Assembly: GCA_039621445.1 (NCBI GenBank)
Contig: CP154954.1
Location: 5,743,919-5,807,918, forward strand
Direction of reading: 5' to 3'
DNA: 64,000 nucleotides
Source: Euglena gracilis
Lineage: Eukaryota
The position numbers were made by a program, and so were the translations under genes. The notes under the pieces were generated by a model. The model was not told the DNA's origin and did no database searches. It saw only the letters and a list, made by a program, of their open reading frames with translations. This document shows, in pieces, positions 22,056-55,444 of this stretch. Within the stretch, counting starts at the first letter, position 1. Every line of letters begins with the position of its first letter.

Positions 22056-22171
22056 CCGAGGTGGCCCCGAGGGGGGGGGAGGGGGGGGGGTTCGGGGGGG
22101 TTTTCCCCCAGGGGTGAGCTTCGCTCTTACCCATAAAGGGATAAGAGCTCAGCGACCCCCCCCCTACCACC

Positions 22172-33608: not shown

Positions 33609-35008
33609 TCACCTGCCTTTATCGGCTGGACGTTCACGCACCTCACGCCAGTAGTCGTGTTGGGGGTCCCCTAATGGGTCCTCAACCAACTCCAGTTGGC
33701 GTGGGGAACGCGGCGGAGCTGATTCACTCCGAATGGTGTTGAGCTCCGGATCGTTGACATCAAAGGAAGGGGTCTCCCAGTCCTTGATCCAATTATCCGG
33801 CAGCTTCTCCCTGGTACGTTCAGCATGATGCTGAAGATACCGTTGGAGCTGCTCCCAGAAAATTGTGGGCAGCATCACCGGCCAGATGATGTAATTCATC
33901 CGGGGGTGATTCGCAGGCACCTGCGGGGGCATCCCCGGGGTCTGCTTGAAGTTGATGTCATACATCCACCTCGCTGTCCGAGCTCTTGCGGTATGGGGCC
34001 GTAATACAGCCGCCAACCAACCTCTGAAGTCCACCAAATCGTGTTCTTCAGGAAGCCACAGTGGCAAGGCGTATCCGCCATGCTGACGCTTGGAGAACAG
34101 GGGGTAAACCTGTGTCTCCCAGTCGCCATCGGTTCAGAGGTAAGGCATTCTTACCTTGGCGTGTTCCTCGACGGCGAGGCGCATTGCCCAAGCGTCGATC
34201 TGGAACTCACGGGCCATTCCCGTGTGGCGGTAGCTTTCTACCTTGCGGAAGTCGGAGTGCTTCAGGCGGCCTTCCACCTGTTTGTACTCCTTCTTCCACT
34301 TCTCCATTGTCTCCCAGTGGTGGGGGACAATGGTGGTGACTGCTCCATCAGCAGTCTGCACGAACTTGGCTCCTATACAGTTGATGCACAAGGCAGGGAT
34401 ATCCCTGTCGTGAGCATTCTCACTGTAGGAGTAGTTCAAGCTGTGCTTCCAGGCGTTCAGGCACTCGCCACATACGAGCGCCACACAGTTCGGCACATAT
34501 GCCCTGTGATGGAACCACGAGGATTGCACCTGCCGCTTGCACACATGCACAAGCGGTTGGTTGTGCCGCACATGGTGGCACACGGTGCACGTCCAGGCAA
34601 AGGACGTGCCGTGCTGGAAATCCAACACGCAGTCCTCACCAAAGTACTGTGCCAGTACTCTGGGTGAGCGCCTATTCCAGAATGTCCAGGTGCTGGGCAT
34701 CCGCAGACACGGGAGGTGAAGCAGGTTCGTCCTGCTCCTCATCCGTCGATCCGGCGGAAGACTGGGCCTGTCGACCACGAGCCTTACCTTTCGGTTTGCT
34801 CTGGCCGTACCCGGACGATGCAACGGCCGAATAGTCGTGCATTGTCGTAGGGCCTTTCGGCTGTCCGCCAGTCTGACCTCCAGCGCCACCTTTCGGTGAT
34901 GGTTTCCCATCACCGCCTTTGGCAGGGGGCTTACAGGGTGCAGCACCCGGTTTGCCTCCGTTCGGCTTCGCACTCCCGGAATCAGGAGGCGATGCCTGCG
35001 GCTTACAG
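33609..35008 (-). pseudogene. element B accessory protein, C-terminal part with Cys/His finger
   Basis: KPGAAPCKP, SSGYG, RSPRVLAQYFGE, CTVCH..HVC..NCVALVCGEC..LCINC, YRHTGMAR, NHPRMNY and LVEDPL match copy A. Stops and frameshifts are present. Confidence 0.85.
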
Positions 35009-35975
35009 TGTACGTCCAAAGCTTTCCCTTTTCCCCTTTTTGGAACTTTCTGTAAAAGCCTTTCGCTTTCGCCTTGGTGCGCAGCCTACTTATGGTAGGG
35101 AAAAGTCTTTGGAGTAACGAAAAGTGGTTTTCCCCTTTGCTTCCCAATTCCCCAAGAAGCAAAGCACAAAGCAAAGACTCAGAAGTTTCTTCTGAGATCA
35201 AGTTCGATTGTTCCGAGGGTTTTTCCCTCTGACAAAACCAATGGTCAAACTTGGAAGTGATGACAGTGAAGAATACCACCTGTGGGGGAGGAGAGAAAAG
35301 TGCTGACGTGTCCAGGGGCAGATCCCAGAAGGGTATGCCACGATCCTACCAGCTGTGGTTTTCCACAGTGGTGCGACCGTCACAGAACCCACTCTGCAGA
35401 TATCCTACAGAGCTGGGACGTGCCTGGTACACATCCCCCTCCCAGGGCTACGCCCGATTTCCTTCATGGACCAGGGTTTCCCAGTCCAGTCAGGATATCT
35501 GACGCTGCCCCAGGTGGGGTTCACTTCTCCATTCGGTGTCTCTCCTTTCCGCACAGTGGCATCCACCCAAAGCCCAAAAACGCAAAAAAGGTTAGCCGCG
35601 TTTCGCGGTTACCTATTAGCCGTTTCGGCTTAGGTGGGGTGTGAAAAAGCCCACTGTGGGAAACGGGGCTTGGCAGGTTTCCTGACAAAGTGTCCCATCC
35701 ACCCACTTTGGGTGTGCCAAAGGCACGCAGGGTTGGTCAAGCGATTCGCTGAAAACCCGAGGGGAGAGGTGTGGAAGGGGGGGGGGGCAGGCTCCTATCC
35801 TGGTCATACCCGGATAGGGCTCCTAGGCGGTCATATCCGCACTAGGAAACAAAAGCCTACTTACAAAACCGACTGCCGGCGACAGCTTTGCGGGGGTGGG
35901 GGGGAAGTAGGGAGGAGAGGGGGGCTGGCTTAGGCCAGAACAGAATTTTTGCTGTCTGGCAGCCTTAAGAGGCCT
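35009..35975 (-). repeat. 3' terminal region / putative LTR of element A
   Basis: Homologous to 32482-33340; abruptly interrupts the coding sequence of element B at 35008. Confidence 0.65.
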
Positions 35976-36339
35976 TAGGGCCAAAAAGTGACAAGTTGGC
36001 CTATTATTACGGCATGCGCGCTGTGTGCTGTGTGTCACTTAGCAGCTTGCCAGGTTTCCCGGCTGCCAAGGTCTTCACAGCAGTAGCTCCTTCACGACGC
36101 AATAAGAGGCGATTACCTCTTGCAGACGGTTTCCGTCCGGATGGGGGGGGGCTCGTGGCGGGGGGGGGGGGGGGGGGTTTTGGATGCTTCCATCCAGAGC
36201 GTAGCGTGACACAGACCCAGGTTCATCCCAGGGCTGTTCAGCGATTTCCGCTACCAATGTATATATATGTATAGTATATGGATGTCCAGGCTCCATGAAG
36301 GCACTTACCTTACATGAGCCTGGTAATGCCGTTTTGGCA

Positions 36340-37360
36340 TTACATCCGTTCCAGCCGCCAATAATCATGGCGGGAGTCCAAGGGATCTTCCACAAGGACC
36401 ATCTGGAATTGAGGTGGTGGTGGCCTATCTACGAGCCAGGTTTCTGGCGATTCGTATTCGAAATCAGGTGCCACCCAGTCCCGAACCCATCCTTCGGGGA
36501 CTGTGTGCTTGGTTGCACTCGCTCTTTCTGCGAGGAACCATTGCAGCTTCTCCCAGAATTTCCTGGGCAGAGTTGCTGGCCCGATGAAGTAGTTCATCCT
36601 TGGGTGATTGGCTGACACCTGCGGGGCATTCCCTGGGTGGAAGTCAATCGGCATGTGATACGCACATTCTGCGCGGACTGTATGGGGTCGTAATACGGCC
36701 CCAAGCCAGTCTTTCCAGGTCATCCCGTGGTTTTCGGGTGGCCATTGTGGCAGGCACCAGCGACCGTTTCGGTCCTGGTTTTGGAACAGGCGGAAAAGTA
36801 TCTTTTCCCTGTCTGCTGTCTCCCAGAGGTAAGGTAATCTTACCCCTGCCTCCTCAGCAGCGAGGCGTATCGCCCCACTGTCGATCTGCCACCCACGGGC
36901 CATTCCCGTGTGGCGGTAGTCGTCGAGCTTGAGGTTGGCATACTTGAAAAAGTCCTTGAACTTTTTGTTCAAGGTGGAGTATTCCTCCAGTGGCTTCTCG
37001 GCACTTGGCACGATTGTGCGTACTGCGCCTTCCGCAGTGTGCCAGAAGGTACCTCGAAGGCAGTTGACGCAGAGAACTGGTACATTCGTACCGTCTCGGT
37101 CTGTGTAGCTGAAATTGTGCTTGTGGGTCCAACTGTCCACGCACTTGGCGCATACCAAGGCGGCACAGTTAGGGATGTATACATCCTTGTGGAACGATTT
37201 CCGATCCACAGGGTTGCACACATGGACGAGGGGTAATCCCAGGTCAAGTGCACTGTTGTACATCTTGTGGCATACAGTGCAAAGCCACACAAAACGGTTT
37301 TCCGTTGTTTTGTCGATGAGGAATTCCTCACCGAAGAATTGGGCCAAAACACGGGGAGAT
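36340..37360 (-). CDS. accessory protein, exon 2 (Cys/His cross-brace-like finger and Trp-rich domain)
   Basis: Open ~340-codon frame with no initiator ATG, preceded by TTCCAG. Intact in both A copies and conserved in B. Confidence 0.8.
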
Positions 37361-37478
37361 CTGGAATTCTAATAATTACAGGTCACATTCTGACCATTTC
37401 CGTCCCTGACAGAACAGTGGCTCAATCCACCGGTTAAGGCATTGCTGTGTCCTCAATTTATGTGCGATCATCATGTAC
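37361..37478 (-). other. putative 118-bp GT-AG intron inside the retrotransposon
   Basis: AACAG|GTACAT ... TTCCAG|ATCT, both phase 2. The spliced product LKNRSPRVLAQ aligns with B, which lacks the segment. Confidence 0.7.
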
Positions 37479-40400
37479 CTGTTTTTCAGGTCATGAATGT
37501 CAGGGTCATCCTGATTGATCGCGTTCCAGTCGATGACAACTTCGTCTTCTGAAGGTGTCTCGGCTGTCGAGGCGCGGGATTTTCCCAGCCCCTTTGACGG
37601 AGGTTTCGGCTGTGAGGTTTTCCCATAGCCGGATGACGTGACGTGCGTGAATCCTTGTCCCGAGGTTAATCCCCGAGAAGAGGATGCAGCACTCTGGCCG
37701 CCAGCACCACCACCGCCTTTCGGTGGGGGCTGATCACCAGATTTCGGTGTGGGTTTGCAAGGTGCGGCGCCCGGCTTACTTTTCGCCGGGGCCTTCGGGC
37801 TTCCGGCTTCCGGAGTCTCCGAGGGCCGCCGCTCGGCGTCTCGCTTGCTTGCCCACGTGCGTGGTGACGCTTGGGACGGGGGTCTTTTCCCCGACGCCGA
37901 ACGTCGTTGACCTTCAGCAGGGGTTTCCCGAGCTGATGGTCGTCCTACACGCTCCTTCGCGGCTCCCGAAGGTTTCCCAGGGGTAGCCGTGGGGGATGGT
38001 GTTGGTGTAGGCCTAGCCTGTGCACTTCGCGCTGGCTGAGCCTGTGGTGCAGGCATGGACGCCCGCTCGGCCTGTTTTTCAGGCGCCGGTGTCCGTGTGC
38101 CTTGACGCTTCTCTGGCGTGACTGTGGCTGTACCATGAGATACGGGTTCATCCCGTGCCTCCGGTGGTACCGCCGGTGTCGATACAGGTTCATCCTGTAC
38201 TGACACGGCTGGTGTTGTCTCCACAGTCATTGCCATCTGTTCGCCTTCCGTCCGTGTCGCTTCCGACACTGGCGGTGGCGCTGCCGTTGGGGAAGGTTCA
38301 TCCTCCACCATGGCTGCAATGTCAGATGTGTCTTCCGTCAGCTGGGCAGTTTCCGCCGCAGCTGTGGAAGAACTGGCCGCAGTGCCACGTGGAGTGACTA
38401 CTGCGATCAGTGACCGTAAACCACCGAGTACGCGTCCGCCCAGTGAGGTGCGTCTCTCCTCACCTGAAGTGGGCTCCTCGGCTGGCTCCTCGGTTAACGG
38501 GGTTTCCCCGGAAACAGGGAGCTTGAGGCGTAATACCTCGGGCGTGTGGGGTACCGTTTCCGGCGGGTTTTCCCGCGGAGGGGTTGGTACACCCGCTGTA
38601 CCCAGTGAGGCTGGTGATAGAGGGACAGGTGTCATTTCACCTGCTTGTGATCCTGGGTGTTGGGCGGTTTCTGCCACAGTATCCAGCATCACTACCGATG
38701 GGCTACGGGTTTCCCGTGCCGGAGGTTCCGTTGGCTGAGGTTCATCCTCAGCCATTGGGACCTCCTCCTCCTCCTCATCCGCTTCCGGAGAGGATTCGGC
38801 TGCGTGTAGCTGTGCTGCAGAACGCGGGTCTTTCCTGCTCCTGTAGCACCCTTGTGCGTTTGACAGGCGGAAAAAGCTAATACTTTCACTCCTGTCAGAG
38901 TTGGGGTATGGGGGCGGCCACGTCGCTCTCACCCAGCTTTCGGGTGGAGGCTGTGGTTGATCATCGTCGATCAAGCAAAGGTCTTCCCACTGCCGTCGAC
39001 AATGGTCAGTCACGCCAAACTCTCCTGTTTCTTCCAGGAATGCTGGCAGTGGCAACGCGTAACGAGGGACTTCCCCTTCGTGCGCCGCGAAAAACATCTG
39101 AAAATCCTCCCATATCAGGATATTCCCGAATTGGGTATCCAGGTGTTCCTGGAGACCGATTTCGGCCTCTTCCCAGTCTGGTCGCAGGTTCATCCTGCGC
39201 TGGTCTGGGTCATTGGGTCTGGCGTTCACCTCCATATATCCCCGAGGCAACCACTTTCTGTGGATTTCCACATCGGCGGTCATATATTCCAGGAAATATA
39301 TGTAGACCTCCAGGACGTAGGTAATCCACGCCCTGTGCCAGTACTGCTGCAGCAGAAATATTTTCTGCCGGTGCTGTTTCAGCACCTTTCGGTCTTGCGT
39401 TCCAATCTGGGGATTCCGGCACTGATGCAGGAGGCTGGCTGCCGGCATTCTTGGCAGACGGAGGCGGTTTTCCGCGTTCTCCGAAACCCCAGAAGTCAAC
39501 GATGTGGACTTCCTTGCAAAACTGGCATTCCAGTTTGTACCGCTGGGGGTATGCGAGGTCCACGTCCAGTACCTTGAACAGCATGCCATACATGCTGTCC
39601 AGGAAGACTTGGAGGTTGTTCGTGAACATTACCGCAGCCTGTGCCTGGAGTTTCTCCGGCAGGGGGTAATACTTCCACTGGATTCCCAGTGCGCTGACTG
39701 AAAACATGTGGTTGAAGATTTCCTTCAACTGTGCGACGAACGTTTCGCCGTCTTCACAGGTATTCAGGCAATCGATATACGTCAGACCGTTTCGGTCGGT
39801 AAAAATGCCGAAATTCTGGCAGGGGTATCCCAACCAGAACCACAGTTCCCAGAAACCAGGCATCTGGTCCAGGCCAACTTCATGCGAATGAGGGTATCCC
39901 TCGAACGCATGAAGTTCGGCACTGTAGAAAAAACGTTTGCAGTGATCGTTCATACGATTCTGCACCACTTCGAGCACCGCATCCGGTGGTCGGTGGATCA
40001 CGTTGCCTGCCCTTGTGAACTTTTGGAGATCCTCGTCGATTTTCGGCCAGATCTCCTCCAGGTACTTGAACACTGAGGCAACGTCATAATCCTTCGTTTT
40101 CGAAGGTTCGGCGGCTTTCCCGCCCTTGCTTGCTGCGGGTCCGGCAGATTTTCCGCCTTTGCCTGGAGCTGGCCAGGCGGCTTTTCCGCCTTTGCCAGGT
40201 GGGGCTTTCCCACCTTTCTCTTGGCCTTTTCCTTTCTCCTTACCTTTGCCCTTTCCTTTACCCTTGCCCTTTGTGTTTGACAGCCATTCGAATGTCGCCC
40301 GGTATGGGTCAAAGTATTCCCAGTATTCTGGGTCTTCTGGCGTAAACACTGGGTAAGTCACGGATTCCGTGCTTGGCGTTCGAGCAAATTCCTGCTCAGC

Positions 40401-41762
40401 ATCACCACGATTCGAGTAAACCGGTGCGACTGGGGATGGTCGGGTTTCCCGACGTGCCCGTTCTGCCGTCACGTCGGGCGCTGGTGGAGCTTCCTCCTCA
40501 GCGTCGACGTGCATCGCCGCGGGCGGATTTTCCGACCTCGGCGAGCGGCGCTGTGGCTGCGGCGTCAGATTTTCCGGGCCGCGGTCACGCTTGCCGGCGG
40601 CAGAACTTGTGGGCCGTGCTAGAGGCGCTTCCGCCACAGCAACGTCCTGCTGTCGCGCTGGTTGCCTTGATCGTGATGGAGCTGGGACTCCTGTGAGAGC
40701 CGACACAGCAGCATCATACTGCTGGCGCTCTTCCCGTGTCATTTCCGCCCGGGCAGGGTATCCCTGGCCAGCGGAAACAGGGGGGCGACGTGCGATTTGT
40801 CGTTGGATCGTCACAGCATATTCGTACTGTTGACGCTCCTCCTCAGTCTCAAACGGCCGGCCAGTCCACGGGTTAACGGGTTCATCCCGTACCGGGGGAA
40901 CTGGTGCCGCACGAGGCGCTGCCGCGGCTTCCCGCGGACGAGCGCTTCGGGCAGAGTCAGACGTCGGGGGAGGATTTCCCTCCGCAGGACGTCGTGGGAT
41001 AGGGTCAGGTATGGTTGGGTGGGGTTGAGGTGGATATACGTACTGATCCCGTGGCCTTGGCGCCTCCTGGGGATAATCCCCAGAGACGGTGTACTGAGAC
41101 ACAGGCTCCTGTGCAGGATAATCCCGCCGGGGCATGCGCTCAGGGGATCGAAAAATACTTTCTTTCACACGTGGGTGTTCACTCCGGACAGGTGCTTCCA
41201 CTGTCTCTTCCTCGGGTAATCCGGGGGAGTGAGCACGAAAATGTGCCGTGTAAGTGCCAACTGGCGGTATCTGCCGTGCTACCTGTGGCGGGACTTCCAC
41301 GCCCAGGTCACGCATGGTAATGTCCGCCGCGAATCCTGACGTGTCCGGGCCGGTGTAATACACCAGACCGGTCATCGTCGCCTGGGCGCACATACACCAC
41401 AGGGCTGGAGGGGTATTCGCGATGGTCAAAACTTTACGGCAGTGGTCATCCCACAATGCCTGTGTCAGTTGGTCTGGTGCCGGGTTTGCGCTCATAGGCA
41501 TAACCCGGTTCATCGTCTCCGCCGTGCGGTGGATCATCACACCCGCATACGGTGGGAGGCGACGAGAGCCTGATGGCTGAGATGGCCGCGCTTCCGCGGG
41601 CATCTGGGTCATCCTGCTACTGCTGCTGGCTTCAGGGTTTCCCTGAGCCGCAGTCCGTGTAGGTGGCTGCGTACCGTATCGGTACGCATACTGGTCAGGT
41701 TGAGGGTGCGTGGTGGGGTGGTAAGGCGGTCCTCCGCCTGGCTCCCTTCCACCGGGCAGCAT
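37479..41762 (-). CDS. accessory protein, exon 1 (Pro/Arg-rich linkers, KG repeat, two conserved globular blocks); one 14-bp deletion frameshift at ~39433
   Basis: ORFs 39210..41762 and 37376..39589 fuse when the 14 nt present in copy 2 (~58537-58550) are restored. Confidence 0.8.
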
Positions 41763-41847
41763 GATACAGCCCGGGGTCGGTACGGTGGGATGTTTGGGTT
41801 GTTGGTTGTAGTAAGGGTAACCGCTTGAGTATTATTTGCTAAAAAGT

Positions 41848-41900
41848 CTGCGGAAAGAAAGAATGATAAGAATCAATGATAAAAAGAAAAGAAAACAACA
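41848..41900 (-). promoter_or_regulatory. polypyrimidine tract + CGCAG splice acceptor ahead of the accessory ORF
   Basis: TTCTTTCTTTCCGCAG|ACTTTT. Equivalents: TTTCTCTATCTTTCTCGCAG|AGTTTT in B (53271) and the same site in copy 2 (60965). Confidence 0.7.
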
Positions 41901-41918
41901 TGGGTTTCCCATGAGTTC

Positions 41919-44900
41919 TCAAAAACTTGTCATGGAAACATCAATGTTATGTTTCTTGTTCCACAGCTTCCAATCTTGCTGGACATACCCAACAAAACTG
42001 GTTGCTGGCTCCCAAGTGTCCTCCTCGGGCCCATACCCTCTCCAGCGGACCTTCCAAAGGTGCATACCTTTGTCGATTTTGTGATCGATAATTTTATCGA
42101 CTACAAAGTCGTCCGTCTCAGGTAATCTGGAACGGGGTTTGAAGTGCAAACACGGGATGGGTTTCCCATCCGGTGGCGACAGGTATGGTTTGAAGTCGTC
42201 TATATGAACGTCCTCGACACCATTCGGTAATGCAACCTTGTAACGCCCGCTGGTACCTAGTCTTTCTAGGATTTCACAGGGGCCGAGCCAGAGGGGGTCC
42301 AGCTTGGAAGACTGCATGCGAGTGCGGCTATTCCGCACCCACACGCGGTCACCGGGACTATACACAGGTGACTTGAAATTCTGCAAAAACGATTTCCGTT
42401 TGGTTGCATGAATATCAGTCACGCACTTCTGGACTGCAGAACGTAGATTTTCTACTTCCGCAAACCAGGTCTCGCAACTGACACTCGTTCGGGCGGGTCT
42501 CTCCGAAGGGACATCCCCTATGGCCGGAGGGTCCCGTCCGAAAACTAATTTTTAAGGGGAGTGAGGTAAAACCAACCCTGGTAGGGTATTGATATAAAAC
42601 AAAGACCATGGTAGAACTGATATCCAGTTGCTGCGCGAGTCAGCCAGTGAAAGGCGAAGCATATTCACAACGGATTTCACGGCTGCCTCGGCTCTACCAT
42701 TGCCTTTGGGTCGGTATATAATGGAAAAATGTTGCTCGATTCCGAGTAAACCGCACAAAGTGGTGAAAAACCTTGAAGAAATCAAATGGTCTTGATCACT
42801 CACGATTTCATTCGGTAAACCCATTAAGCAAATGCATTTCTCCAAAAATATAGTTGCCAAACTTTGGGCAGTCAACCCTGACTTCTGCCATGGAATGGCT
42901 ACAATGTACCCACTCAGCCTGCAGACGACAACAAAAACGTAATCGTAAATTCTGTCGTCCGTTCCTTTGCACGGTTCTAATTCCAGAAAATCCATGCAGA
43001 GGGATGTAAAAATGTCAGGGGGTACGGGGAAAAAGTCCATCGTACCAGGGGGGGTACCTCTGCGGGGTTTTACCGCTTGACAAATTTGACACCGTTGCGC
43101 TATTCGCAAACAGCGTGAGTAAAGCTCTTTCTCGCTCAGGGTTGTGCAATATCTGCGGCCGTTGTGCAATATCTCCCACCAACGAAAGAAGTTTGGGGGC
43201 CCCAGGGTGACCATGGTTGTGATAACACAAAATCACATCATCAACCAGGTCCTGGGGAATACCATATTTGTAACCCGATTCATTGCGAAAAATGACCGGA
43301 CGTGCTTCCACGTCGGCGCCTTCCGCGCACTGGTGCGATCAGGAATAGTTGTGAAACGGGAAAAGAATCCAAAAGATTATCCGCAGCGTCGTTTCGACGT
43401 GCGTATTCGTCAGCTTCCTGACTTCCATGAAAAGTCGCGTCTCCCTCATCCGGGTTCCCAGGGTAATACCAAGGGGCCCGACTGAGCGGATCCGCTACTT
43501 TTTGTGTGTGACCAGGGGTATAAATAACCACAAGTTTGAATTGACTCAAGAACTCATGCCATCTGCATCGCCTTCCGACCGATGACATGGCCTTGTTCAA
43601 ATCCTCGGTGTACCAGTGTTGGAGACTCTCATGGTCGGTCTTGACGAGGATCTGGACGAGGCTGCTGGCTACCCAGCTTCGGAATTTCTGGAGTATAAGC
43701 ACGATTGCGTAGGTTTCCTTCTCGCGTATACTCCATTTGACTTGACCTTTTCCAGCGTCGCCCTGTAACTTTCTGCTGAAGAAAGCCACAGGTCGGAGCT
43801 CATTCGCCGCATTATGCTGGCTAAGAACTCCGCCAACAGCGTAATCGCTGCTGTCGACTTCCAACACGTATGGTTTGTACGGGTCCGCGATTTCGAGGAC
43901 AACATTCTCCAAAAGCAAAACCTTGATTTTCTCAAGGGCCTCACGCATTTGGTCATCCCAAATGACTTTGATGTTGTCAACAGCCCGGTTTTTGAGCTGT
44001 TTGGTGAGGGGCACCGCGATTTTCGCGAAGTCCTTCATATAAATCGCGTAGTATTGGGCTAATCCCAAAAATCCTTTGAGGTGAGTAATCGTTTTGATTA
44101 CCTCAGGGGTCCATTTCTTAATGGCTTCAAGTTTACTCGGAGCGGCTTTCCGCTGTCCATTGCTAAGGATGTGACCGCAAAATTTTATAAGTAGCCGAAA
44201 CAAATGCAGTTTCGCGCCTTTCGCGAAAAGCACATGTTTTTGAAAAGCGGTTAATACCGCGCAAACATGGTGGAAGTGTGTGACGAGGATATCCTCGCTC
44301 GATTTTGCGGATGGTGGTGGTGTTCCCACCAGCACATCATCAATGTACACAATGGCAAACGGTAAATCGCGTAGAACCCATTGTATCATGCGCTGAAACA
44401 TGGCTGGGCCATTCTTAACACCCATGGGGAGTACCGTCCATTGGTACACACCCTTGGATGTCACGAATGCCGTGTATGGTTGGGAGACAGGGTGTAAGTG
44501 CATTTGGTGAAAACCGTCCTCCAGATCGAAAATTGACCACAACCGGTTTTCCGATTGTTTGGTGATCAAATCCTCGATCAGGGGGAGCGGGAAGGGATCA
44601 TCCCTTGTTTGGGAGTTCAGGTACCGGTAATCCAGCACCAGCCTCCATTTCTTCTGACCTGAGGGGTCTGGGGGTTTAGGAACAACGAATGCCTGGGATG
44701 TCCACTCGCTTTTCGAGGGTACAATCCACTTGCGCTGAATAAGCTTCTCAATCATTTCATTGAGAGCTTGTTCGCGTTCTCCCGAACAACGAAAAAATTT
44801 CCGGTGCATTGGCTTGGCTCCATCCTTAAGCTCGATCTTACAAACACCGAACGGACCGCGTATCGCGGGGTCGATGTCGCACGCGTATACTGGATTTTCC

Positions 44901-46887
44901 AGCACACCGTGAAATTCGCGGGTAATCCGCGAACAGAATTCGGCTGACTTAGGATGCTGACCTGCACTCTCGATGACTGCGGAAACCGCCAGGGTATCCC
45001 TGGGGCTACCGAGCTTCCTCGGCACCGCGAATTCGGACATTCCGAATGCATCGAAGAAACATACGCGAAAAATGATTTCTTGCAAGGGTGGTAATATTTT
45101 GCCACAAAAATCCTCAAAAATAGGCACATTAGTGGGTAAATCCCACCAATGAAAACATACATACGATAGTTGGGTGAACCATTCCGCTTCCGGAATGATG
45201 GGTATGAGAATAACTCCACGGGCTTCATCCCGCAGAATTTTCTCAACCGCACATTCGATAAGTTTTGGGGGATGGTGCATCCATAACACCGTGTCACCCC
45301 AAAATTTATCAAATGCGTTGGAGTGTTGTGACCAATGACGTGGCAAACGGGCATGTGCATTGGATGAAAACACATCGATTTCCAATGCCAAATCAAAAGA
45401 ATCAGCCAATGTCGCGATTTTGGAAAACCATCGTTCCAAAATGCGATATTGACCAAAATTGAAAGCATTCCATACGCGTTTCGCGTATTCGTGCACCCGA
45501 TTTCCGGGTTGGAGAGAAGAAACACAATGAATGGATCCACAAACATGCGGGTTGTCTTCCACTACCTCAAGGGGTAATCCCAAGGGAGTTTGGACAGGTT
45601 GGGGATTTCCCCATTCCGCATCAAATTTATACCAAGTGTACTTGGGATGGTGGTTAGGCATGACGCTTTTCGCGTTTCCGAACAACGAGGTTATTCCGCG
45701 TTGTTGGAGTACTCGGTGTATCTCCGCGCATTGCGGGTTACAACCAAGTGTATCCTGGGGTGTGGATTCCGTATTCGGAATTGCGATTAGTGTCGGATTT
45801 TCAACTAAACATCCACAATCGAAATCCGATTGGGTGGAAATTCTCCTGCAGTGCACACATTGGAAGGAAGTGTGTTGGTGTGACAGGTGTGCGTGTAAGT
45901 GGGTGTCGATGGCATTAGCCGGTGAGTCTTGTACAGGTGTGCCTGGATTCGGCACAACTGGTAGGAAACGGAGTGGTGGTGTAGCTGGGCGACTACTCGA
46001 CACCGATATATCTTCAGGCCTTTGGGCTTTCGTCTTGTAACCCAGTGAAACGGCGGGGGTACCGCTACTCGCTTGCCCTGCCTCATGTGGAACGCATGTT
46101 GGTGTGTCATTGGGCAGGGGGGAGGCTTTCTCCGTACCCCGGGTGTGGAAAACGGTTGTTGGTGTGGTGGATAACGGTGTTGCCATTGTAGGTAACGGTG
46201 TTGGAAAAGTGGTGGTCATCATGGCTGATGCCAACGGTGATGGTGGTTTGGGTGTCAATGAAGTGGTGGGTGCTGTGCGCAGACCGTGGGAGTGGCAATC
46301 CACAACCAATCGGTACTGGCGTAAAAATAGGTATCCCAAAATTACATCAGACCCGTGAATTCCGGACTCGTAACCCAAATATTGGTGAAATGTTGTAATT
46401 GTGGGGGTTGTGAGTGATGCTTCGGAATGATGGGCAAGAGTATCTCGAGCACACATCCCAAATCACCACCACACATGGGGGTGTTATCCGCGGTTGTAAT
46501 TTTGATCAGTTTCTTGGCGCTTACCAAGAGCGTGGTCGGTATCAACCCCAACCGAAAGAGCAGTGCAATGCGACAACCAGTGTCAATGAGAATTTTAACT
46601 TTAGTGGAGAAATTTTGGACGCGGATTTCCGCTTGGACGAGCAATTCCATTGGTGGTACGCAAAGTGAAGGGTCTGGCGGAAATACGTTTACACGCCAGC
46701 TCTCCCATGAACCCTTTCCTACTTTGCTCAGCATTCCGAGCGGAAATGTGGAGTGGGGGGTACGGGACCCGAAATAATTCCGGGTACTGACCGTGAAGGC
46801 GGATGGGCAGGGGGGGTAAGGTTGATCAGGTCTTACCTCCATCTGTTCATCAGCCCAGAGGTCCGTGCCCTCGGACCTCGGGCTCCC
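41919..46887 (-). pseudogene. pol: pol of copy A1: protease, MTase-like domain, RT, RNaseH, integrase, chromodomain
   Basis: Motifs ILIDTG, LDYRYLN, FDLEDGFHQ, YIDDVL, VDSSD, TDHESL, H..GHPG..CQIC, MDF..SDQ..GRAE, GPCEI, WKVRWRGYGPEEDTWEP. Lesions: frameshift ~46420, ~150-bp deletion ~43292, short duplication ~43160, stop at 42552. Confidence 0.92.
45050..45400 (-). other. DNA N6-adenine methyltransferase-like (Dam/DIRS-type) domain within pol
   Basis: EIDVFSSNAHARLPRHWS...NAFDKFWGDTVLWMHHPPKLIECAVEKILRDEARGVILIP...EWF follows the DIRS MT pattern (DxF..N..LPxxxS..DAF..W....xPP..LI....K........LI.P.....WF). Confidence 0.72.
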
Positions 46888-46890
46888 CTA
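46852..46890 (-). promoter_or_regulatory. putative stop-codon readthrough signal (UAG-GGG + hairpin)
   Basis: TAG GGG AGCCC-GAGGTCCG-AGGGCA-CGGACCTC-T-GGGCT; gag and protease are in the same frame. Confidence 0.7.
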
Positions 46891-49220
46891 CTCCAAGTCC
46901 GAACCGGCCGCATAGCCGGCAACGGACTTTTTGGTGGAATAGCTGGAATTCAATGAGCGCACCGCCATTCGGGCCTCATTAAATTCCCCGTCCGAGGTCT
47001 CATCCCCCTCCCTGCCCGAAGCCGGGGTGTCCTCCTCCAAACAAGATATCTTGAAACCGACCTTTTGCCGGTTGGAGGAGTAACCACGGTCATCGCGGCG
47101 CTTACCGCGATTTCCGTAGCCGGGCCGGGGGGAACGAGATCCGGGACATTTGGATGCGTGGTGATCTTTGGAACCGCAAAGTGAACAACGGGATTTGTGG
47201 CGGGATTCTGCATAACGGGGGGAACGGTATTCCGTTCGACCGTCAAACCGTCGTTGTGTACGGGTTTCCCGTCGACCATGACCGGTGTACCGGGGTTTCC
47301 CCGGTGACTCCCGCGAAGAGGATGATCCACTTCGCGAACGAGATCGTGAATAGTCGCGATTGAAATCCCGTTTTCGGGTAGGGGGTCCAGGTGACCGACC
47401 GCGAGAAGGACGGGTTTCCCGACCATCACGCGATGGTGACTTGGGCCTGCTACCGCTAAAGCGTTTCTCCGAAGAACGTGAAACTCCTGATTGACGTGAG
47501 GAGGTCGAGCCCCTTGGGCTTCCAATACGCTTTCGCGCATCGGGATTCGGACATTCCCGAGACATGTGACCAGATTTGTTGCACAAAAAGCACCGTTTAT
47601 CCGTGCCCTGGTCCGAAGAACGCTGATTCCGCGTTTTCGGTCCCGTGGTGGGTGATCTTGGTGACTTGGGTGATTTGTACAACGCATTAACCGCACCCGC
47701 AGGGATTCCCGCGGTGGGATGCGTTTGGAAAGCGGACTGTATTTGTCCCAAAACTTGTGTGAGTTTGAGTTGCTTTGACACATAATTCCAACGTTGGGCA
47801 AGAGTCATCTCATGCCCTGCCAACTCCTCGCGATGGATATCCTTCACGAGGGATGGTGTGAAATGCAACAAAACCACATCTAATTGTTCGCGCATTTGCT
47901 TCTCGCTAAGTTCATCAACTTCGGCAGCAAGTGCTAACCATTTGGCATACCAAAGGTCAATGGATTTCCATTTGCGATCCGATGGCGCGGATTGTCGCCA
48001 CTTCTTCTCCACGGTAATCCTGGTGACCAAGCTTGAGTTGGTTGAAGCGTATTGCTCAACCAGGTCATCGAATGATACGCCATTACGTATCACCAAATTA
48101 CGTGCGCGTTCTCGCTCTTCCCTCGGTAGGCAATCGATGAATTCCATCTTGACTACCTCGGGATTCGGGTCTTGGGTGGGTCCCTTTAGTGCCCAGTGAT
48201 ACTCCCAGTCCCGAAAAAATTGTCTTCATGTGGTTGGATCCCCGTCCCATTGGGGTTTCACCTTGTTCGCGATTGCGATGGTGCCCTTGAAGTCTCTCTG
48301 AGTAACCCGCTGACCCTCGGTGGTATTCCAGGGGTTTGGGTCAGGGTGATTCTTTACACCAAACGCGTTTCGCGGATTTTCCGCTCCATGTGTACCCCGT
48401 GCAGGATTTCACGCACCAAGTGTAGGTGTGGCAGGATTTTCCTGCGGGAAGTGCAAAAAATGTGGTGAATTTCTCCCGGTGGGGCGGGTTTCCCGCCGAA
48501 AACCCGATGGGTGATCTGGTAATCCAGAACCCGTTGGTGATTGGTATGATCACGAATGCGACACATGACCAATACCAGGTGTGGGGTGTTGGCTCATTCC
48601 TCGTACAAGGTTGGAATGTTGAATTTCTTGGTGGAGACTCGAATTTGCGAGCGGGGCGTCAATTTCCTCATCGGAAATGTTGAGCGAAAGGTGGGTTTGT
48701 GGTGTGGGCAAAAGCAAAGGTGGTACAATTCGCGTTTTAGCGGGTGGTTGTACCAAATTCGCGGTGGATGTAGGGATTCCTACTCCAGAAATGGTAATTT
48801 GAGAACGCGATTCTGGGACATTTGGAATACCAACCGCAGCGCTTACCGCGGTGGATGGTGGCACAACCGGTGCCGGAGTGGACATTTTATCCAAACTCGC
48901 GGACAAGTCATGCACCGTTTCTTCCAAATGTTCCACCAACTGGAGTTGGCCGCAAATACGGTCAACCTCAGTCTCCAAATGTCTAATGCGTTTGCGGTAA
49001 CGGGAAAAATAGTCCAAGTGTGGTAACTTTTCAGAAACCAAGTGTAGGTCTTGGACAAGTTGTCTCTGGGACTCCTCCACATTCCGGAGTTGACCCGCAA
49101 GCGCTTTTACTGCATTTGAGACAATTTGCAATTGGTGGGGTGACTTGGTGGGGGTTTCCGCGGTGGTGCGCGAATTTTCCGCGGTTGGCTTTTCCAACAG
49201 CGCAGAATAAGGAGCCGATG
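46888..49220 (-). pseudogene. gag: gag (coiled-coil N-terminus disrupted; open 46888-48147)
   Basis: Two CCHC knuckles (CFLCNKSGHMSREC, CSLCGSKDHHASKC) separated by an RS-rich tract; heptad-like segment at ~48890-49135. Confidence 0.8.
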
Positions 49221-52200
49221 GTGCCGGAGTAGACGCTTGCCGTCTGGGCGAAGCGGGCATACTGACCGCTGGGTCACGCATGACGCTCGCAGGGGTCGGC
49301 AATCGTTCCGGGGGTTGTTCAGACGGCCGTCGCCGAGCAGGTTCATCCTGTCCGACGAGGCGTGGCACTGTGGTCGTCACCGGAAGCGGTGCTTCCACAG
49401 GTGCTGGCACTCCCAGAAACTCTGCCATTGTCTTCGGGATGGCAGGGACCCTGCGCGGTGTCAGTGGTCGTGGGGGTATCTCCTCCACTTCCATTTCGAC
49501 ATCCGGTCAATGAGGTTGATCCTCCACAACCGCTGGCGCAGGTGCTACGGGAGGTTGATCCTCCGATGTAGCCGGTGCGACAGATGGCCCTGTCGGCTGG
49601 GGTTCATCCCCTGATGGTGGTTGCTCTGCTGTCGGAGATGGGGGTGAGGGAACGCCGACATCCGGCGTCTCCACGACCTCAGCGGCGGAGCTTGATGCTA
49701 CGCCTCCACCTCGTGGCGTTAGTGCAGCAGCCACGGCAGTAATGCCGGTGACTACGGCGCCGAGCACACGGCCTCCTAACTAGGTGCGTGCTGTGGGACT
49801 GGCAGGTTCTTCGAGGATATCCTCGACGACCATACCAGTCACCTCGGCTGGAGGCTCAGCCGTTGGAACAGGCGTAGCAGCCACAGGTATATCCCCTGCG
49901 GGTGCTCCGTCTGGTCTAGGCTGTGCCGGAGCAGGCAGAGCAGGGTAGAGGATATCCTCCACGTTCTCACCTTCCTCCTCAGGAAGTTCCTAGTCTCCAC
50001 CTACCGGTGGACAGACGCAAGCCGCCGCGGGAGCCGGGGAAACCGATCGTTCCCCTGCCGCTCGCGGGGCAGAGACGAAGGATACAGCCGTTCCTGTCGG
50101 AGACGGCGGCGCTGCCTCTAGAATGGTGACGGAGGGGCTGCGGTCGCGTTCCTCCCGCCGCGGAATCGCGGTGGTGGAAGCGACTGACGCCTCACGTCTC
50201 CTTGGCGCCAGAGGTTCATCCTCCGGGGCGATGAAGGCGCGCAGATCCTCGGGCGAACGAGGATCGTCGGGGTTCCATCGGCATCCCTGGGCATCCGCCA
50301 GCCTGTAAAAGGCCAGCGTACTGCTGCTGGCGCTGTTGGGCCAGGGTGGCGGCCATGATGGCTGCACCCAGGCGTTGGCAGGCCTGTTCGGGCCCATGAA
50401 GCCGCGGTAACGCGTGTCTTCTCAGACCTCGAAAAAGCCCTCCTCGAACTCCTGAACGCATGCCAGAATCGGCATACGCTGTTCGAGGATGGCCTGCGGG
50501 TGACACATCAGCGGAAGGAATACCTCCCGGTCGAGGGTACCGCCAAACTGTCGCCGCAAATGTTCCTCCATGCTGATATCAGCCATGTGCCAGTTGGGGC
50601 GCAGGTGGCCGAGAATCCGACGACGAGGACCCTCGATGGCGTCACCGTAATCCGGTGGCAGGCTTTCCATACCAGGCCTATCGTCCTGGGGGTCACGGAG
50701 ATGTATATACACCTCCATGACATAGGTGGTCCAGGCTCGCCACCAGAACTGCTGCAGCATAAAAATACGCTGCTTGTGGACGCGGCGACTTTTGCCCTGG
50801 ACATCCGGGGCGTCGCGGCACACATGCATAGGCATGCGGCGTCCCATCTCCAGGCCCGGGTTATCCCGAGGCGGTGGAGGACTTCCGCGCACGCCGAATC
50901 CCCAGAAGTCGACAGGAAATTCCTGCCGGCAGTACTTACAGCAGAGGTCATACCTCTGCGGGTAAGCCAGGGAAACGCGCTTAACGCGGAAGGTGGAGCC
51001 GTAATGGCTCACCAGCCACACCTGGAGGTTGTTGCACCACAACACCTCGATCAGGCGTTCGATGTCGGGGTGTAGTGAGTAGAATTCCCACTACACGCCG
51101 AGGGGTCCGACTGTATGAATACAGTCGAAGATTGCCTTCAGCCTTCGGGCCAACACACGCTGGTCCCGAAATCTCAACTGGTGCAGGTAACTGCGACCAG
51201 TGGAGTCGCCGAAGAGACCCCAGTTCTGGCAGGGGTATCCCAGCCAAAACCAGAGCTCCCAGAAACCTGGCTGGGTTTCCAGCAAGGGTCTGCCACCTTC
51301 ACCTTCGAAGGCGTACAGATCTATCCCGTAATGGAATGGTCTGACTCTGTTCTCGGTGTGGCGTAATACCACATCGATGACTGCTTGTGGAGGGGTGACG
51401 GGGCGGTTTCCTGCAACATGGTAATCATGCTGCATTCGCCAGCCTTCGTCCTCCAGCTCCTCCTTGAACCTGAGCATATGCTCAAAGTCCGAGAGGACTT
51501 CTGCTGGTTCCTCTTCCTCCTCACGTGCTGTTCCCTTACCTTTACCCTCACCCTTCCCTTTGCCGGCCACGCCTTTGCCTTCTCCCTTGCGTTTGCCCTC
51601 GGCCTTGCCTGTGTCCTTTCCCGTCTGGCGAATACCAGAGGGTCGGGCGCTCGGTGCCGCCGGAGTCGGTTCGGTTCCTTCCCATTCCATCTCTGGGGAG
51701 GGACCTGGCCGACCCGCTGCACGTCGCGGTGACGGCGTGGCTGGGCGTCGGCTAGGAGTCTGGCGTGGGCTTGGCTTCGACGCAGGTGGTCGCGGCTCCT
51801 TCCATACCGGAGGGATCGGCGGTGGCATGGTGGCAACAGGACGGCTCATCGCCACCTGTGCCTCTGCCGGTGGTCGTCCAGCCGGGGTGTCCTGGCTGGC
51901 TTCCACCTGCATCGCCACACCGCCTTCCGCGTCCCGTGGGCTGGGTCGCCTGGGCTGTGGGGTAAGGTTCTCCGTAGTCCTGTCGTGCTTCAGGGTGGCA
52001 GGTAATACTGCTCCACCTGCCGGGGGCTCACCGTGTAATACCGGGGTTGCCACCCGCAGCTGCGGCTGGTACGGATGGTATGGGGTGTATCCACGGCCCT
52101 GAAGGGCAGCCAGAGAGGAATAATACCTCGTCCGGTGCTCTTCAGACGCGAATACTGGCTCCTGCAGGAAGTGTCGAGCAAGCTCATCCTGCTCGGTTCC

Positions 52201-53171
52201 CGAAGGTGCCATGTGGTAGTAGGGAGTCTCCTGCCGACGGGGGATATCCCCAGTCTGGACAGGAGCTGCACTGGGCGGTCGGGCTGCCACACGGTGGGGA
52301 GGTTCATCCTCCACCACTATGGGCTCCGGCTGCAGCCGTGGCTCAACGCCAGGGACAGGGGCGACCGGTGATGCCTGTGGCATCCTGTGCATGAACATGT
52401 GTTGGACGTATGCCACAGGGGGCACGTCCGACTGTCCGGCTGGGAGCACGCGTGCGCCGCGCGGGTAATCCGCGTGCGTCGCGTACTGCGAGACAAAGTG
52501 CTCCGCTGGCGGCTCGCGCGGCGGCATTCGCTGCGGCGAGGGCGGGCGAGCAAAAATTTTCGTCATCCCAGGTGGGACATGCACAGCCTCACATACCGGT
52601 GGGGGCGTGTGCTCACGCATATGCACGGTGTGGGATCCCACCGGCGTCTGCGTTTGCAGCATGGGCGGCACATACACGCCCAGGTCCATCATTGTCTCGC
52701 CAGGCTCGAATCCGGAATCGGATGCCGACGAGAAATACCGTCTCCCCGTCATCAGGGCTTGACCACAGGGACACCACTGAGCCACCGGCGTGTTGGCTAC
52801 CACCAACAACTGAGCACAGTATGCATCCCAAAGGGCTTGCATAAAGGGCTCTGTTGGGGGGTGTGCGCACATACGCATCGCCCGCTCCAACGTCTCCGTA
52901 GTGCGGAAGATCATCTCTCCCGCATACGGGGGCAGGCGCGATCTGCGCTGCGCTGGTGGCTGAGGTGCCGGCTGCTGGACGGCAGATGGATCTGGTACCG
53001 CATATGCGGACCGGCTGCTGGTAGCTGCGGCGAATACCGGGTCTGAAACCCTCTCAGCATGTGGGCACCCGGAATCGGGGCCTCAGCATACTGAGGGTAC
53101 TGGGGGTATGGCGCGCCAGGAGGCTGCGGCCATGGTGGACCTGGTCCAGGTCCGCGCCCAGGCAGCAGGAT
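49221..53171 (-). pseudogene. element B accessory protein, N-terminal and central part
   Basis: QALWD..C..L..ANTP...WC.C.QA.MTG..Y, ENLTPQP.R, KG repeat, PGFWELWFWLGYPCQN, LAYPQRY.L.C..C, VDFWGFG and LRP.W are shared with A. Several stops. Confidence 0.85.
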
Positions 53172-53363
53172 GCTACCCGAACGACGACGACAACTAAGAG
53201 TAACCTTGTTGTCAGTCGCTTTGAGTGCTGGTGCACTGAAAAAGGTAGGCTTCTATCTTAATCAAAAACTCTGCGAGAAAGATAGAGAAATAAGGAAGTG
53301 CAGGGGGGGTATAAACGCGAAACATTCACATAAAACACACGCATTTTCCAAAACGAAATCGTT

Positions 53364-55253: not shown

Positions 55254-55266
55254 NNNNNNNNNNNNN
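55254..55266. other. assembly gap
   Basis: 13 N next to a poly-G run. Confidence 1.
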
Positions 55267-55444
55267 GGGGGGGGGGGGGGGCGCTTGGATGCTTCCATCC
55301 AGAGCGTAGAGTGACACAGACCCAGGTTCATCCCAGGGCTGTTCAGCGATTTCCGCTACCAATGTATATATATGTATAGTATATGGATGTCCAGGCTCCA
55401 TGAAGGCACTTACCTTACATGAGCCTGGTAATGCCGTTTCGGCA

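What the first reader, a model, noticed from the sequence alone, without database searches (positions are those of the whole stretch)
36340..41762. Accessory ORFs reconstruct to one 1,772-aa protein conserved across subfamilies
Seen: copies A1 and A2 have complementary lesions. 5423 nt - 118 (intron) + 14 (deletion) = 5319 nt, an exact multiple of 3. Against subfamily B, blocks such as PGFWELWFWLGYPCQN, LAYPQRY, VDFWGFG, YRHTGMAR and NHPRMNY are retained while the Pro-rich linkers diverge, which suggests purifying selection. I recognise no family for the globular blocks.
Basis: partly seen in the sequence, partly recalled or inferred. Interest (0 to 1): 0.8.

Follow-up and report, generated by a model that had tools for sequence, protein, structure and literature searches.

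The report
Giant extra gene of Euglena retrotransposons
A Ty3/gypsy-type retrotransposon family, almost certainly of Euglena gracilis, carries behind its integrase a gene of about 1,800 residues from no known family; selection has kept it, but every copy in this window is broken and the proposed repairing intron is really coding sequence.

Summary
On the minus strand, two 98.6%-identical chromovirus copies (A1, A2) and a diverged subfamily (B1, B') carry about 5.4 kb of coding sequence after the integrase. A1 lacks 14 nt and A2 lacks two single nt at other places. All five quoted motifs are shared with B.

The 118-nt "intron" is wrong. That stretch encodes a motif (LNRW...PLF) conserved in B-type Euglena gracilis transcripts and in distant relatives. 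A1 and A2 instead share a frame break at 37369-37392. Two contigs of a public run carry 8 more letters there, which puts the frames in register. The intact protein would be about 1,814 aa, not 1,772.

The globular parts are under purifying selection. In the C-terminal domain, 8 of 9 A1/A2 differences are synonymous, and non-synonymous sites are far better kept than silent sites between A and B.

Pfam, PDB sequences, Foldseek, VIA-align and the ESM Atlas gave no significant match. An exhaustive HMM search found about 18 relatives. Two unnamed 2,200-2,300-aa proteins hold both main domains in the same order.

There is no signal peptide or membrane helix, so it is not an env. Function is unknown; a zinc-binding, largely disordered nuclear scaffold is my best guess.

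The parts
36340..41762 (-). It lies in three frames, from the first ATG after the integrase to the stop at 36340-36342.
39436..41762 (-). A1 ORF3, first frame. It holds a Pro/Tyr-rich start, an N-terminal conserved domain (about residues 89-200 of P0001), Pro-rich linker 1, a Lys/Gly-rich tract and the first half of the central domain.
39435..39436 (-). Place where A1 lacks 14 nt that A2 has (A2 58539-58552). This is a lesion private to A1.
37376..39433 (-). A1 ORF3, second frame. It holds the second half of the central domain, Pro-rich linker 2 and the conserved LNRW...PLF motif. It ends at TAA 37376-37378.
37361..37478 (-). It is coding sequence in frame 2, not an intron.
37369..37392 (-). 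Frame break shared by A1 and A2. Other copies have 8 more letters at 37391/37392. TAA in frame 2 and TAG (37369-37371) in frame 3.
   Evidence: (table 7)
36340..37368 (-). A1 ORF3, third frame: the C-terminal domain. It has a Cys/His cluster (about residues 27-100 of P0003), then a helical part with YRHTGMAR and NHPRMNY.
36607..36670 (-). Cluster of 7 A1/A2 differences in 64 nt, all at third codon positions and all synonymous, over the PG..PQV.ANHPRMNY block.
41848..41898 (-). T/C-rich tract ending in CGCAG between the integrase stop (41919-41921) and ORF3. The core CGCAGA.TTTTT is shared with B1. It is a candidate splice acceptor (inferred).
41919..43232 (-). A1 integrase with SH3 and chromodomain, split by an in-frame stop at 42552.
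43280..46462 (-). A1 pol frame (reverse transcriptase, RNase H).
46888..48225 (-). A1 gag-like frame with a CCHC zinc knuckle.
55445..60879 (-). A2 copy of ORF3. It has two private 1-nt deletions plus the break shared with A1. The stretch 57657-59227 is an unbroken 523-residue reading of the central domain.
48550..53168 (-). B1 copy of ORF3 (N-terminal domain to linker 2), 30-36% identical to A at protein level. It has CTG where A has the ATG, one frameshift near the start and at least 5 in-frame stops.
33636..35030 (-). B' copy of the end of linker 2 and the C-terminal domain, 45% identical to A. It has one TGA in place of Trp and a deletion of about 130-146 nt over the LNRW region.
53271..53310 (-). 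B1 counterpart of the T/C-rich tract ending in CGCAG.

Best explanation
The region is a genuine third gene (ORF3) of a chromodomain-bearing Ty3/gypsy retrotransposon family. The host is Euglena gracilis or a very close relative.

The gene lies after the integrase stop and is a separate ORF, not part of Pol. When intact it encodes one protein of about 1,800 residues. Its parts, in order:
- a Pro/Tyr-rich start;
- a small conserved N-terminal domain;
- a long Pro-rich linker and a Lys/Gly-rich basic tract;
- a central domain of about 420 residues with a CxxC...HxC signature;
- a second long linker;
- a C-terminal domain of about 340 residues, which opens with a nine-residue Cys/His cluster and ends in a helical part.

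The globular domains have been kept by purifying selection in the active lineages. All four copies in this window are dead. There is no 118-nt intron; A1 and A2 share a frame break there.

The A and B versions of ORF3 are much older than the split of their pol/integrase. The gene therefore behaves as an exchangeable cassette, moved by recombination between element lineages (inferred).

How it works is inferred only, at about 0.3:
- It would be translated from a sub-genomic mRNA that uses the conserved T/C-rich tract plus AG upstream of the first ATG. In Euglena this would plausibly be by spliced-leader trans-splicing.
- The protein would be a soluble, largely disordered, zinc-binding scaffold acting on nucleic acid or chromatin, or on the ubiquitin system. 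It would help the element replicate, integrate or escape silencing.
For: Element and host:
- RVT_1, RNase H, rve, SH3_Tf2-1, Chromo and zf-CCHC lie on the same strand upstream.
- P0005, a record named Euglena_gracilis EG_transcript_25142, is 97.7% identical to B'.

One protein:
- A2 is open for 523 residues across A1's deletion.
- B1 is collinear in one frame, E 1e-122.
- P0021 and P0025 hold both domains in order.

Separate ORF:
- Two stops in A, and three in B, lie between the integrase and ORF3.
- The first ATG after the conserved CGCAG is 41762.

Selection:
- A versus B gives dN 0.47-0.69 against dS 1.4 or more. Codon positions 1+2 are 52-69% identical, position 3 is 30-50%.
- In the C-terminal domain 8 of 9 A1/A2 differences are synonymous, binomial p 3.5e-5. 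In pol the figure is 4 of 13.
- 10 of the 14 variant places listed for other copies in that domain are third codon positions, p 0.004.

No intron: and table 7.

Older cassette:
- Four-fold sites under identical residues are 129 of 203 identical in pol/IN, against 116 of 363 in ORF3, Fisher p 4.5e-13.
- Nucleotide similarity stops at about 41955 and resumes at about 35967.

Soluble protein: no 19-residue window reaches hydropathy 1.6; the maximum is 1.16.

Zinc lead:
- Cys/His columns are conserved in 17 rows.
- Weak RING/PHD/ZZ rows appear in three searches.
Against: - No intact copy was seen. All four copies here are broken.
- B1 has CTG where A has the start ATG.
- A1/A2 differences in the first two thirds of the gene are not biased to synonymous: 3 of 15 and 7 of 15.
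- dS between A and B is saturated, so the ratio is only an upper bound. Protein-guided alignment of the Pro-rich linkers favours positions 1+2.
- The 8-of-9 result rests largely on one 64-nt cluster, which may be a single conversion tract.
- Expression of the A type is near nil: 36 and 29 reads laid, most of them only in part. No spliced or trans-spliced RNA was seen.
- No LTR pair was found for A1.
- Every fold and family lead is below significance.
- The central-domain model is useless (pLDDT 35).
- Whether the distant relatives sit in retroelements is unknown.
Confidence: 0.75

Rival explanations
1. One reading: one 1,772-aa protein whose mRNA loses a 118-nt GT-AG intron (37478-37361).
For: - GT and AG stand at the stated places, and 118 = 3n+1 restores the frame.
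- Both A copies have the stretch unchanged, with 0 differences in 118 nt.
- A simple ribosomal slip cannot join the frames, so some bypass is needed if these very copies are to be expressed.
Against: - The stretch encodes LNRWIEPLF in frame 2. This aligns with SLNRWIQPLF of the Euglena transcript P0005 and with N.W in P0008, P0011, P0013, P0021 and P0025.
- P0005 reads through the place without interruption.
- Two X6 contigs have 8 more letters, which put the frames in register.
- By my own count, the 21 positions between the conserved G and SPR then match P0005 in number.
Confidence: 0.04
2. An envelope-like gene, as in errantiviruses and retroviruses. This would make the element an endogenous retrovirus of a protist.
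For: Its position after pol and its large size. The candidate acceptor upstream would fit an env-like sub-genomic mRNA.
Against: - The start MLPGGREPGGG... is no signal peptide.
- No hydrophobic window reaches 1.6 in any piece, nor in P0021 or P0025.
- There is no Pfam env family.
- No fold match to fusion proteins was listed.
- About half of the protein is Pro-rich, low-complexity linker.
Confidence: 0.03
3. A cellular gene of euglenids or other protists that a chromovirus captured. The distant relatives would be host genes, and the element copy may serve no purpose for the element.
For: - P0021 and P0025 are stand-alone ORFs that begin with Met. They carry a further C-terminal domain of about 650 residues that the window lacks.
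- Silent-site divergence of ORF3 exceeds that of pol, as after a separate origin.
Against: - Both A and B carry the gene at the same place, with the same conserved upstream signal.
- At least three diverged versions exist in Euglena gracilis records: A, B, and P0009 at 33-35% identity.
- Near-duplicate fragments occur among the metagenome hits; P0006 and P0008 overlap almost letter for letter. That is typical of repeats.
- Synonymous bias within the A family shows selection while it was part of the element.
Confidence: 0.12
4. A C-terminal extension of Pol made by stop-codon read-through. ORF3 is in the same frame as the integrase in both A and B.
For: The frames coincide: 42551-41831 = 720 and 54306-53082 = 1224, both multiples of 3.
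Against: - Two stops (TGA, TAA) in A, and three in B, lie in the spacer.
- The spacer is poorly conserved apart from the CGCAG island.
- B1 needs a further frameshift near the start of ORF3.
Confidence: 0.04

Closest known systems
Euglena gracilis 'EpiLTR' / DAM-LTR retrotransposons (bioRxiv 10.64898/2026.05.21.726589; passages read)
   Same: Same host species. These are LTR retrotransposons with a chromodomain that carry extra protein-coding modules beyond gag-pol. The authors also report mosaic or nested elements in this genome.
   Different: Those modules are adenine and cytosine DNA methyltransferases. Here Pfam finds no methyltransferase or any other family in ORF3. I did not compare sequences with their elements, because supplements are closed.
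Extra ORFs of plant Ty3/gypsy elements (Ogre, Retand/Tat; Retand paper PMC11963269 seen as a search listing only; the rest recalled)
   Same: A long coding or non-coding region between pol and the 3' LTR. Additional ORFs of unknown function are kept within a lineage.
   Different: Those are non-chromovirus plant lineages. No sequence comparison was made here. The present protein is far longer and has relatives in unnamed protist-like metagenome records.
env of errantiviruses and retroviruses
   Same: A third gene after pol, probably needing its own mRNA.
   Different: There is no signal peptide, no membrane helix and no fusion-protein fold.
Cross-brace zinc fingers (RING, PHD, ZZ, ADD)
   Same: Residues 27-100 of the C-terminal domain have conserved C-x2-C, H-x-C, C-x4-C-x2-C and C-x2-C pairs. 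The best, weak rows in three searches are such fingers.
   Different: - The spacing between the second and third ligand pair is about 21 residues. In RING and PHD it is 2-5 (consensus recalled).
- There is no Pfam hit.
- Z is at most 3.5, Foldseek E at least 0.18 and Atlas score at most 0.85, all within noise.

Membership tests
Chromovirus (Ty3/gypsy, Metaviridae) | Reverse transcriptase and RNase H of the Ty3/gypsy type | tested here: met
   RVT_1 E 1.5e-24; RT_RNaseH_2 E 7e-24
Chromovirus (Ty3/gypsy, Metaviridae) | Integrase after RT, with a C-terminal chromodomain | tested here: met
   rve E 2.8e-10; SH3_Tf2-1; Chromo E 2.8e-11 in A1 and 7.6e-11 in B1
Chromovirus (Ty3/gypsy, Metaviridae) | Gag with a CCHC zinc knuckle | tested here: met
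   zf-CCHC E 2e-6 in 46888-48225
Chromovirus (Ty3/gypsy, Metaviridae) | Pair of long terminal repeats | tested here: inconclusive
   Local alignment of 34800-36400 against 48150-49700 scored 27, no better than shuffles. A1 may be truncated or nested, and no whole genome is held.
Retroviral/errantiviral Env | N-terminal signal peptide and at least one membrane-spanning helix | tested here: not met
   Maximum 19-residue hydropathy is 1.16 in the window's pieces. No window reaches 1.6.
Retroviral/errantiviral Env | Match to a known envelope or fusion family or fold | tested here: inconclusive
   No Pfam family. None listed by Foldseek or VIA-align on the C-terminal domain only. The central domain could not be modelled.
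   The interior encodes LNRWIEPLF, conserved in P0005, P0008, P0011, P0013, P0021 and P0025.
   Depth over 37270-37723 is 0 to 0.18 in the two raw RNA runs, and no such joint is listed.
RING/PHD-type zinc finger | Eight Cys/His ligands in cross-brace spacing, recognised by family models | tested here: inconclusive
   Nine conserved Cys/His. No Pfam hit. Weak structural rows only. Spacing is atypical.
Euglena DAM/DNMT 'EpiLTR' | DNA adenine or cytosine methyltransferase domain in the element | tested here: not met
   No such Pfam family at E up to 0.01 in gag, pol, integrase or ORF3 pieces.

The most novel reading that the evidence does not exclude
ORF3 founds an unrecognised, ancient family of giant (1,800-2,300 aa) zinc-binding scaffold proteins. 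It would be carried as an exchangeable cassette by retroelements of euglenids and other protists. Its atypical cross-brace finger would act as a ubiquitin ligase or chromatin reader. The element would use it to tamper with the host's heavy DNA-methylation and silencing system or to direct integration. That would be a third kind of 'epigenetic' accessory beside the methyltransferases already reported in Euglena elements.
Probability: 0.15. Interest if true: 0.75.

Novelty: new variant of a known kind. Interest (0 to 1): 0.5.

Why it matters
LTR retrotransposons make up a fifth to a third of the 2.37-Gb Euglena gracilis genome (PMC11252322, passages read). Very little is known about what they encode beyond gag-pol.

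This family is very abundant: 30,507 contigs of one public run lay on the element. It devotes 40% of its length to one protein with no recognisable family or fold, yet the protein has domains under selection and relatives up to 2,300 aa long in unnamed environmental records. That makes it a concrete, testable candidate for a new retroelement accessory function in a protist with unusual RNA processing and chromatin.

The finding that the gene is older than the pol it travels with also gives a clean case for studying module exchange between retroelements.

For annotation, the result warns against repairing frames with ad hoc introns.

Tried and rejected
- Word-index protein searches found nothing: P0003 at near length, P0001 residues 575-800, and alignment A3 at longer lengths. 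The last did not recover P0018, which is in range, so it is weak evidence.
- Two metagenome-contig scans with the A/B alignments found nothing: 230 and 130 pattern matches, 0 confirmed.
It was repeated with a 4-row alignment: 78 pattern matches, 0 confirmed.
- The ESM Atlas gave a best score of 0.85 for the C-terminal domain, below the 0.9 line. It gave no usable hit for the central domain.
- PDB sequence profiles gave one chance hit at E 0.57 (ribosomal protein L31) and none.
- The AlphaFold model of the central domain from a 2-row alignment had pLDDT 35 and was not searched.
- Fold searches on the C-terminal model (pLDDT 71):
  - Foldseek PDB: 0 of 390 rows at E up to 0.001.
  - VIA-align wide: 0 of 48,161 chains at Z 5 or more; best Z 3.7.
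  - BFVD: best E 0.18.
- RNA gave no verdict on splicing or on the 5' end. In the two raw-read runs 36 and 29 reads laid, 31 and 24 of them only partly.
P0005 showed that B' instead has a deletion of about 130-146 nt with different borders, so I dropped that reading.
- The search for an LTR pair and exact ends of A1 failed.
- No whole genome is held.
- Earlier notes of this scan held nothing.
- Paper searches for a description of this gene found only the methyltransferase preprint as relevant. Supplements, including element libraries and the Euglena proteome tables, could not be seen.


Full report
**What is there**

The window is repeat-rich eukaryotic DNA, and no whole genome is held for it. 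On the minus strand lies a Ty3/gypsy element, A1, with these parts:
- a gag-like frame with a CCHC knuckle at 46888-48225;
- a pol frame with RVT_1 and RNase H at 43280-46462;
- an integrase with SH3 and chromodomain at 41919-43232.

After the integrase stop come three long frames: 39210-41831, 37376-39628 and 36340-37368.

A second copy, A2 (55267-64000), is 98.6% identical over 7,154 nt. It ends at a 13-N gap (55254-55266), so its junction with the next element is a scaffold join.

A diverged subfamily is present twice:
- B1 (48550-55253) holds integrase, then ORF3 as far as the second linker.
- B' (33636-35030) holds the end of the second linker and the C-terminal domain.

**Host**

The exhaustive profile search returned P0005. 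Its source names it Euglena_gracilis EG_transcript_25142, and it is 97.7% identical to B' over 130 residues. A second named Euglena gracilis transcript, P0009, is a third version at 33-35% identity. The window is therefore from E. gracilis or a very close relative. The 50-60% G+C and the very high copy number in run X6 (30,507 contigs laid) fit this. The published 2.37-Gb assembly has LTR elements as 22-33% of the genome (PMC11252322, passages).

**Checking the observation**

The alignment of A1 and A2 over the region shows exactly these indels:
- A1 lacks 14 nt at about 39435.
- A2 lacks one nt at the places matching A1 40251 and 38551.

Fourteen added letters join frame 1 to frame 2. A2 indeed reads 523 residues without a stop across that place, and B1 is continuous there too. 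The arithmetic is correct.

**The intron is not real**

GT at 37478 and AG at 37361 exist. Four findings count against an intron:
- In frame 2 the 118 nt read ...RYMMIAHKLRTQQCLNRWIEPLFCQGRKWSECDL, then a stop.
- The B-type transcript P0005 reads, without interruption...SLNRWIQPLFVRGEPFHYVPEHTWTFWNRRSPRVLAQYF....
- An N.W motif at the same distance before the AQ.F block is present in P0008, P0011, P0013, P0021 and P0025.
- The interior of the "intron" is therefore conserved protein.

What A1 and A2 share is a break. Frame 2 is closed by TAA (37376-37378) before frame 3 is opened by TAG (37369-37371). A simple slip therefore cannot join them.

Two contigs of run X6 depart from A1 at 37392. Their loose end consists of 8 additional letters followed by sequence that matches A1 again (table 7; compared with the window letters printed). 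Eight more letters bring frames 2 and 3 into register: (2260+8) mod 3 = 0. By my own count, the 21 positions between the conserved Gly and Ser-Pro-Arg then equal those of P0005.

With 14 and 8 letters added, the gene would have 1,815 codons, still with one in-frame TAG in A1 and A2.

I had first read B' as an intron-less copy. P0005 shows that B' instead carries a deletion of about 130-146 nt with other borders.

**State of the copies**

All are dead.
- A1: the 14-nt deletion plus the shared break and stop.
- A2: two 1-nt deletions plus the same shared lesions.
- B1: CTG at the place of A's ATG, a frameshift near the start and at least 5 in-frame stops.
- B': the deletion and a TGA where A has Trp.
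- The A1 integrase also has in-frame stops.

**One protein, a separate gene**

Two unnamed proteins from metagenome assemblies, P0021 (2,207 aa) and P0025 (2,294 aa), match both main domains of ORF3:
- The central domain matches at P0021 residues 244-438 and P0025 residues 605-825 (E 4e-9 and 4e-15).
- The C-terminal domain matches at 1004-1290 and 1343-1654.
- The two domains lie in the same order and at a similar distance.
- Both proteins also have a Lys/Gly- or Arg/Gly-rich tract before the central domain.
- Both carry a further C-terminal domain of about 650 residues that the window lacks.

ORF3 is in the same frame as the integrase in A and in B, but two (A) or three (B) stops intervene.

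The spacer is poorly conserved except for a T/C-rich tract ending in CGCAGA.TTTTT. I take this as a candidate acceptor for a sub-genomic, possibly trans-spliced, mRNA. That is inference; no RNA evidence was obtained.

**Selection**

Between A and B:

| Region | dN | dS |
|---|---|---|
| pol/integrase | 0.05-0.10 | 0.5-1.2 |
| ORF3 | 0.47-0.69 | 1.4 to saturation |

In every ORF3 block, codon positions 1+2 are better kept than position 3:

| Block | Identity at positions 1+2 | Identity at position 3 |
|---|---|---|
| N-terminal domain | 0.69 | 0.50 |
| Central domain | 0.58-0.60 | 0.35-0.41 |
| C-terminal domain | 0.65-0.67 | 0.41-0.48 |

The ratio is thus at most about 0.2-0.45, not near 1. 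It is an upper bound because dS is saturated, and the linker figures are biased by protein-guided alignment.

Within the A family:
- In the C-terminal domain 8 of 9 differing codons are synonymous (p 3.5e-5). Seven of them lie at third positions within 64 nt over the most conserved block.
- This looks like a short tract copied from a sister lineage that had diverged under strong constraint.
- The first two thirds of the gene show no such bias (3 of 15 and 7 of 15 synonymous). Nor does pol (4 of 13).
- Ten of the 14 variant places listed for other copies in the C-terminal domain are third positions, p 0.004. A further 168 rows of that table were not shown.

**An older cassette**

At four-fold sites under identical residues, A and B agree at 129 of 203 sites in pol/integrase but at 116 of 363 in ORF3 (Fisher p 4.5e-13). 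In the well-aligned globular blocks alone the agreement is 27-48%.

Nucleotide similarity between A and B ends at about 41955, the end of the integrase. It resumes in patches of 77-89% from about 35967, some 370 nt after the ORF3 stop. The simplest reading is that the two ORF3 versions split long before the pol genes now next to them. That implies recombination between element lineages. This is inferred, not shown.

**What the protein is**

No family or fold match was found:
- No Pfam family matches any piece or any relative.
- No PDB sequence matches.
- The ESM Atlas gives no row at 0.9 or more.
- The C-terminal domain was modelled with a 17-row alignment. From the 21 proteins in hand I left out P0014 and P0020 as decayed, P0016 and P0017 as unrelated repeats, P0018 as the same as P0025, and P0022 as 39 aa. 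The model reached pLDDT 71 and pTM 0.69.
- Foldseek on PDB and on BFVD, and VIA-align on 48,161 chains, gave nothing above noise: best E 0.7 and 0.18, best Z 3.7.

The only recurrent, weak lead for residues 1-120 is cross-brace zinc fingers:
- The Atlas rows include RING families.
- VIA-align lists PHD, ADD, ZZ and RING rows at Z 2.5-3.5.
- BFVD lists baculoviral IE2/PE38/CG30 RING proteins.
- The alignment shows conserved C-x2-C-H, H-x-C, C-x4-C-x2-C and C-x-N-C.
- The central domain has a similar C-x2-C...H-x-C.

No 19-residue window reaches hydropathy 1.6, and the start is not a signal peptide. An env is therefore excluded as far as sequence can tell. About half of the protein is Pro-rich, low-complexity linker.

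**Expression**

B-type and a third-type fragment exist as assembled E. gracilis transcripts. In two raw RNA runs labelled with the same species code as the best holder, only 36 and 29 reads lay on the 13.6-kb A1 element, most of them partly. No joint at the proposed intron or at the candidate acceptor was listed. This is no verdict.

**Comparison and novelty**

Extra genes in LTR retrotransposons are a known kind: env in errantiviruses, additional ORFs in plant Ogre/Retand (recalled; listing), and methyltransferases in Euglena and other protists (bioRxiv 10.64898/2026.05.21.726589, passages). This gene shares its position with them but none of their domains.

Four full-text searches found no description of it. 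Supplements and element libraries could not be seen, so an unnamed consensus may exist in a repeat library.

I rate it a new variant of a known kind, of moderate interest. The gene, its selection, its family and its mosaic history are well supported. Its function is not.

Noticed in passing
window 55254-55266: A run of 13 N lies exactly between the 3' end of A2 and the RNase H of B1. The apparent A2/B1 junction is a scaffold join, and the 3' end of A2 is unknown.
   Followed up: yes
window 33636-35030, 35040-48555 and 48550-55253: A1 seems to be inserted into the ORF3 of a B element. B1 stops at about 48555, where 3 X6 contigs diverge. B' resumes at about 35030. Exact ends, target-site duplication and LTRs of A1 could not be found.
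   Followed up: partly
window 35054-35967 and 32519-33334: The regions after the ORF3 stops of A1 and B' share patches of 77-89% nucleotide identity, far more than the ORF3 between them. They are candidate cis-acting 3' sequences or LTR parts.
   Followed up: partly
window 43292-43296 versus 62401-62551: A2 has about 146-149 nt between pol and integrase that A1 lacks. One contig of the leaf-litter metatranscriptome run X3 has the longer form.
   Followed up: no
window 43280-46462, first 594 residues of the pol frame: The long N-terminal part of pol before the reverse transcriptase has no Pfam match at E up to 0.01. Not even a protease was found.
   Followed up: no
window 681-3317: Another reverse-transcriptase frame (RVT_1 E 1.4e-13, weak RNase H) of a different element. 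The stretches 1-866 and 5239-6527 are 96% identical direct repeats.
   Followed up: no
window 15040-17799 and 19872-22471: A large inverted arrangement with arms 84-93% identical in several pieces. Its nature is unknown.
   Followed up: no
run X3 (leaf litter metatranscriptome) on window 35000-48600: 195 contigs, 95-99% alike, cover 29 of 30 bins of the element. A euglenid with this family, or its DNA, was present in that sample. The tool warns that DNA can be present in an RNA library.
   Followed up: no
proteins P0018, P0021, P0025 (C-terminal about 650 residues): The distant relatives carry a further large conserved domain with no Pfam match. It is absent from the window's copies.
   Followed up: partly
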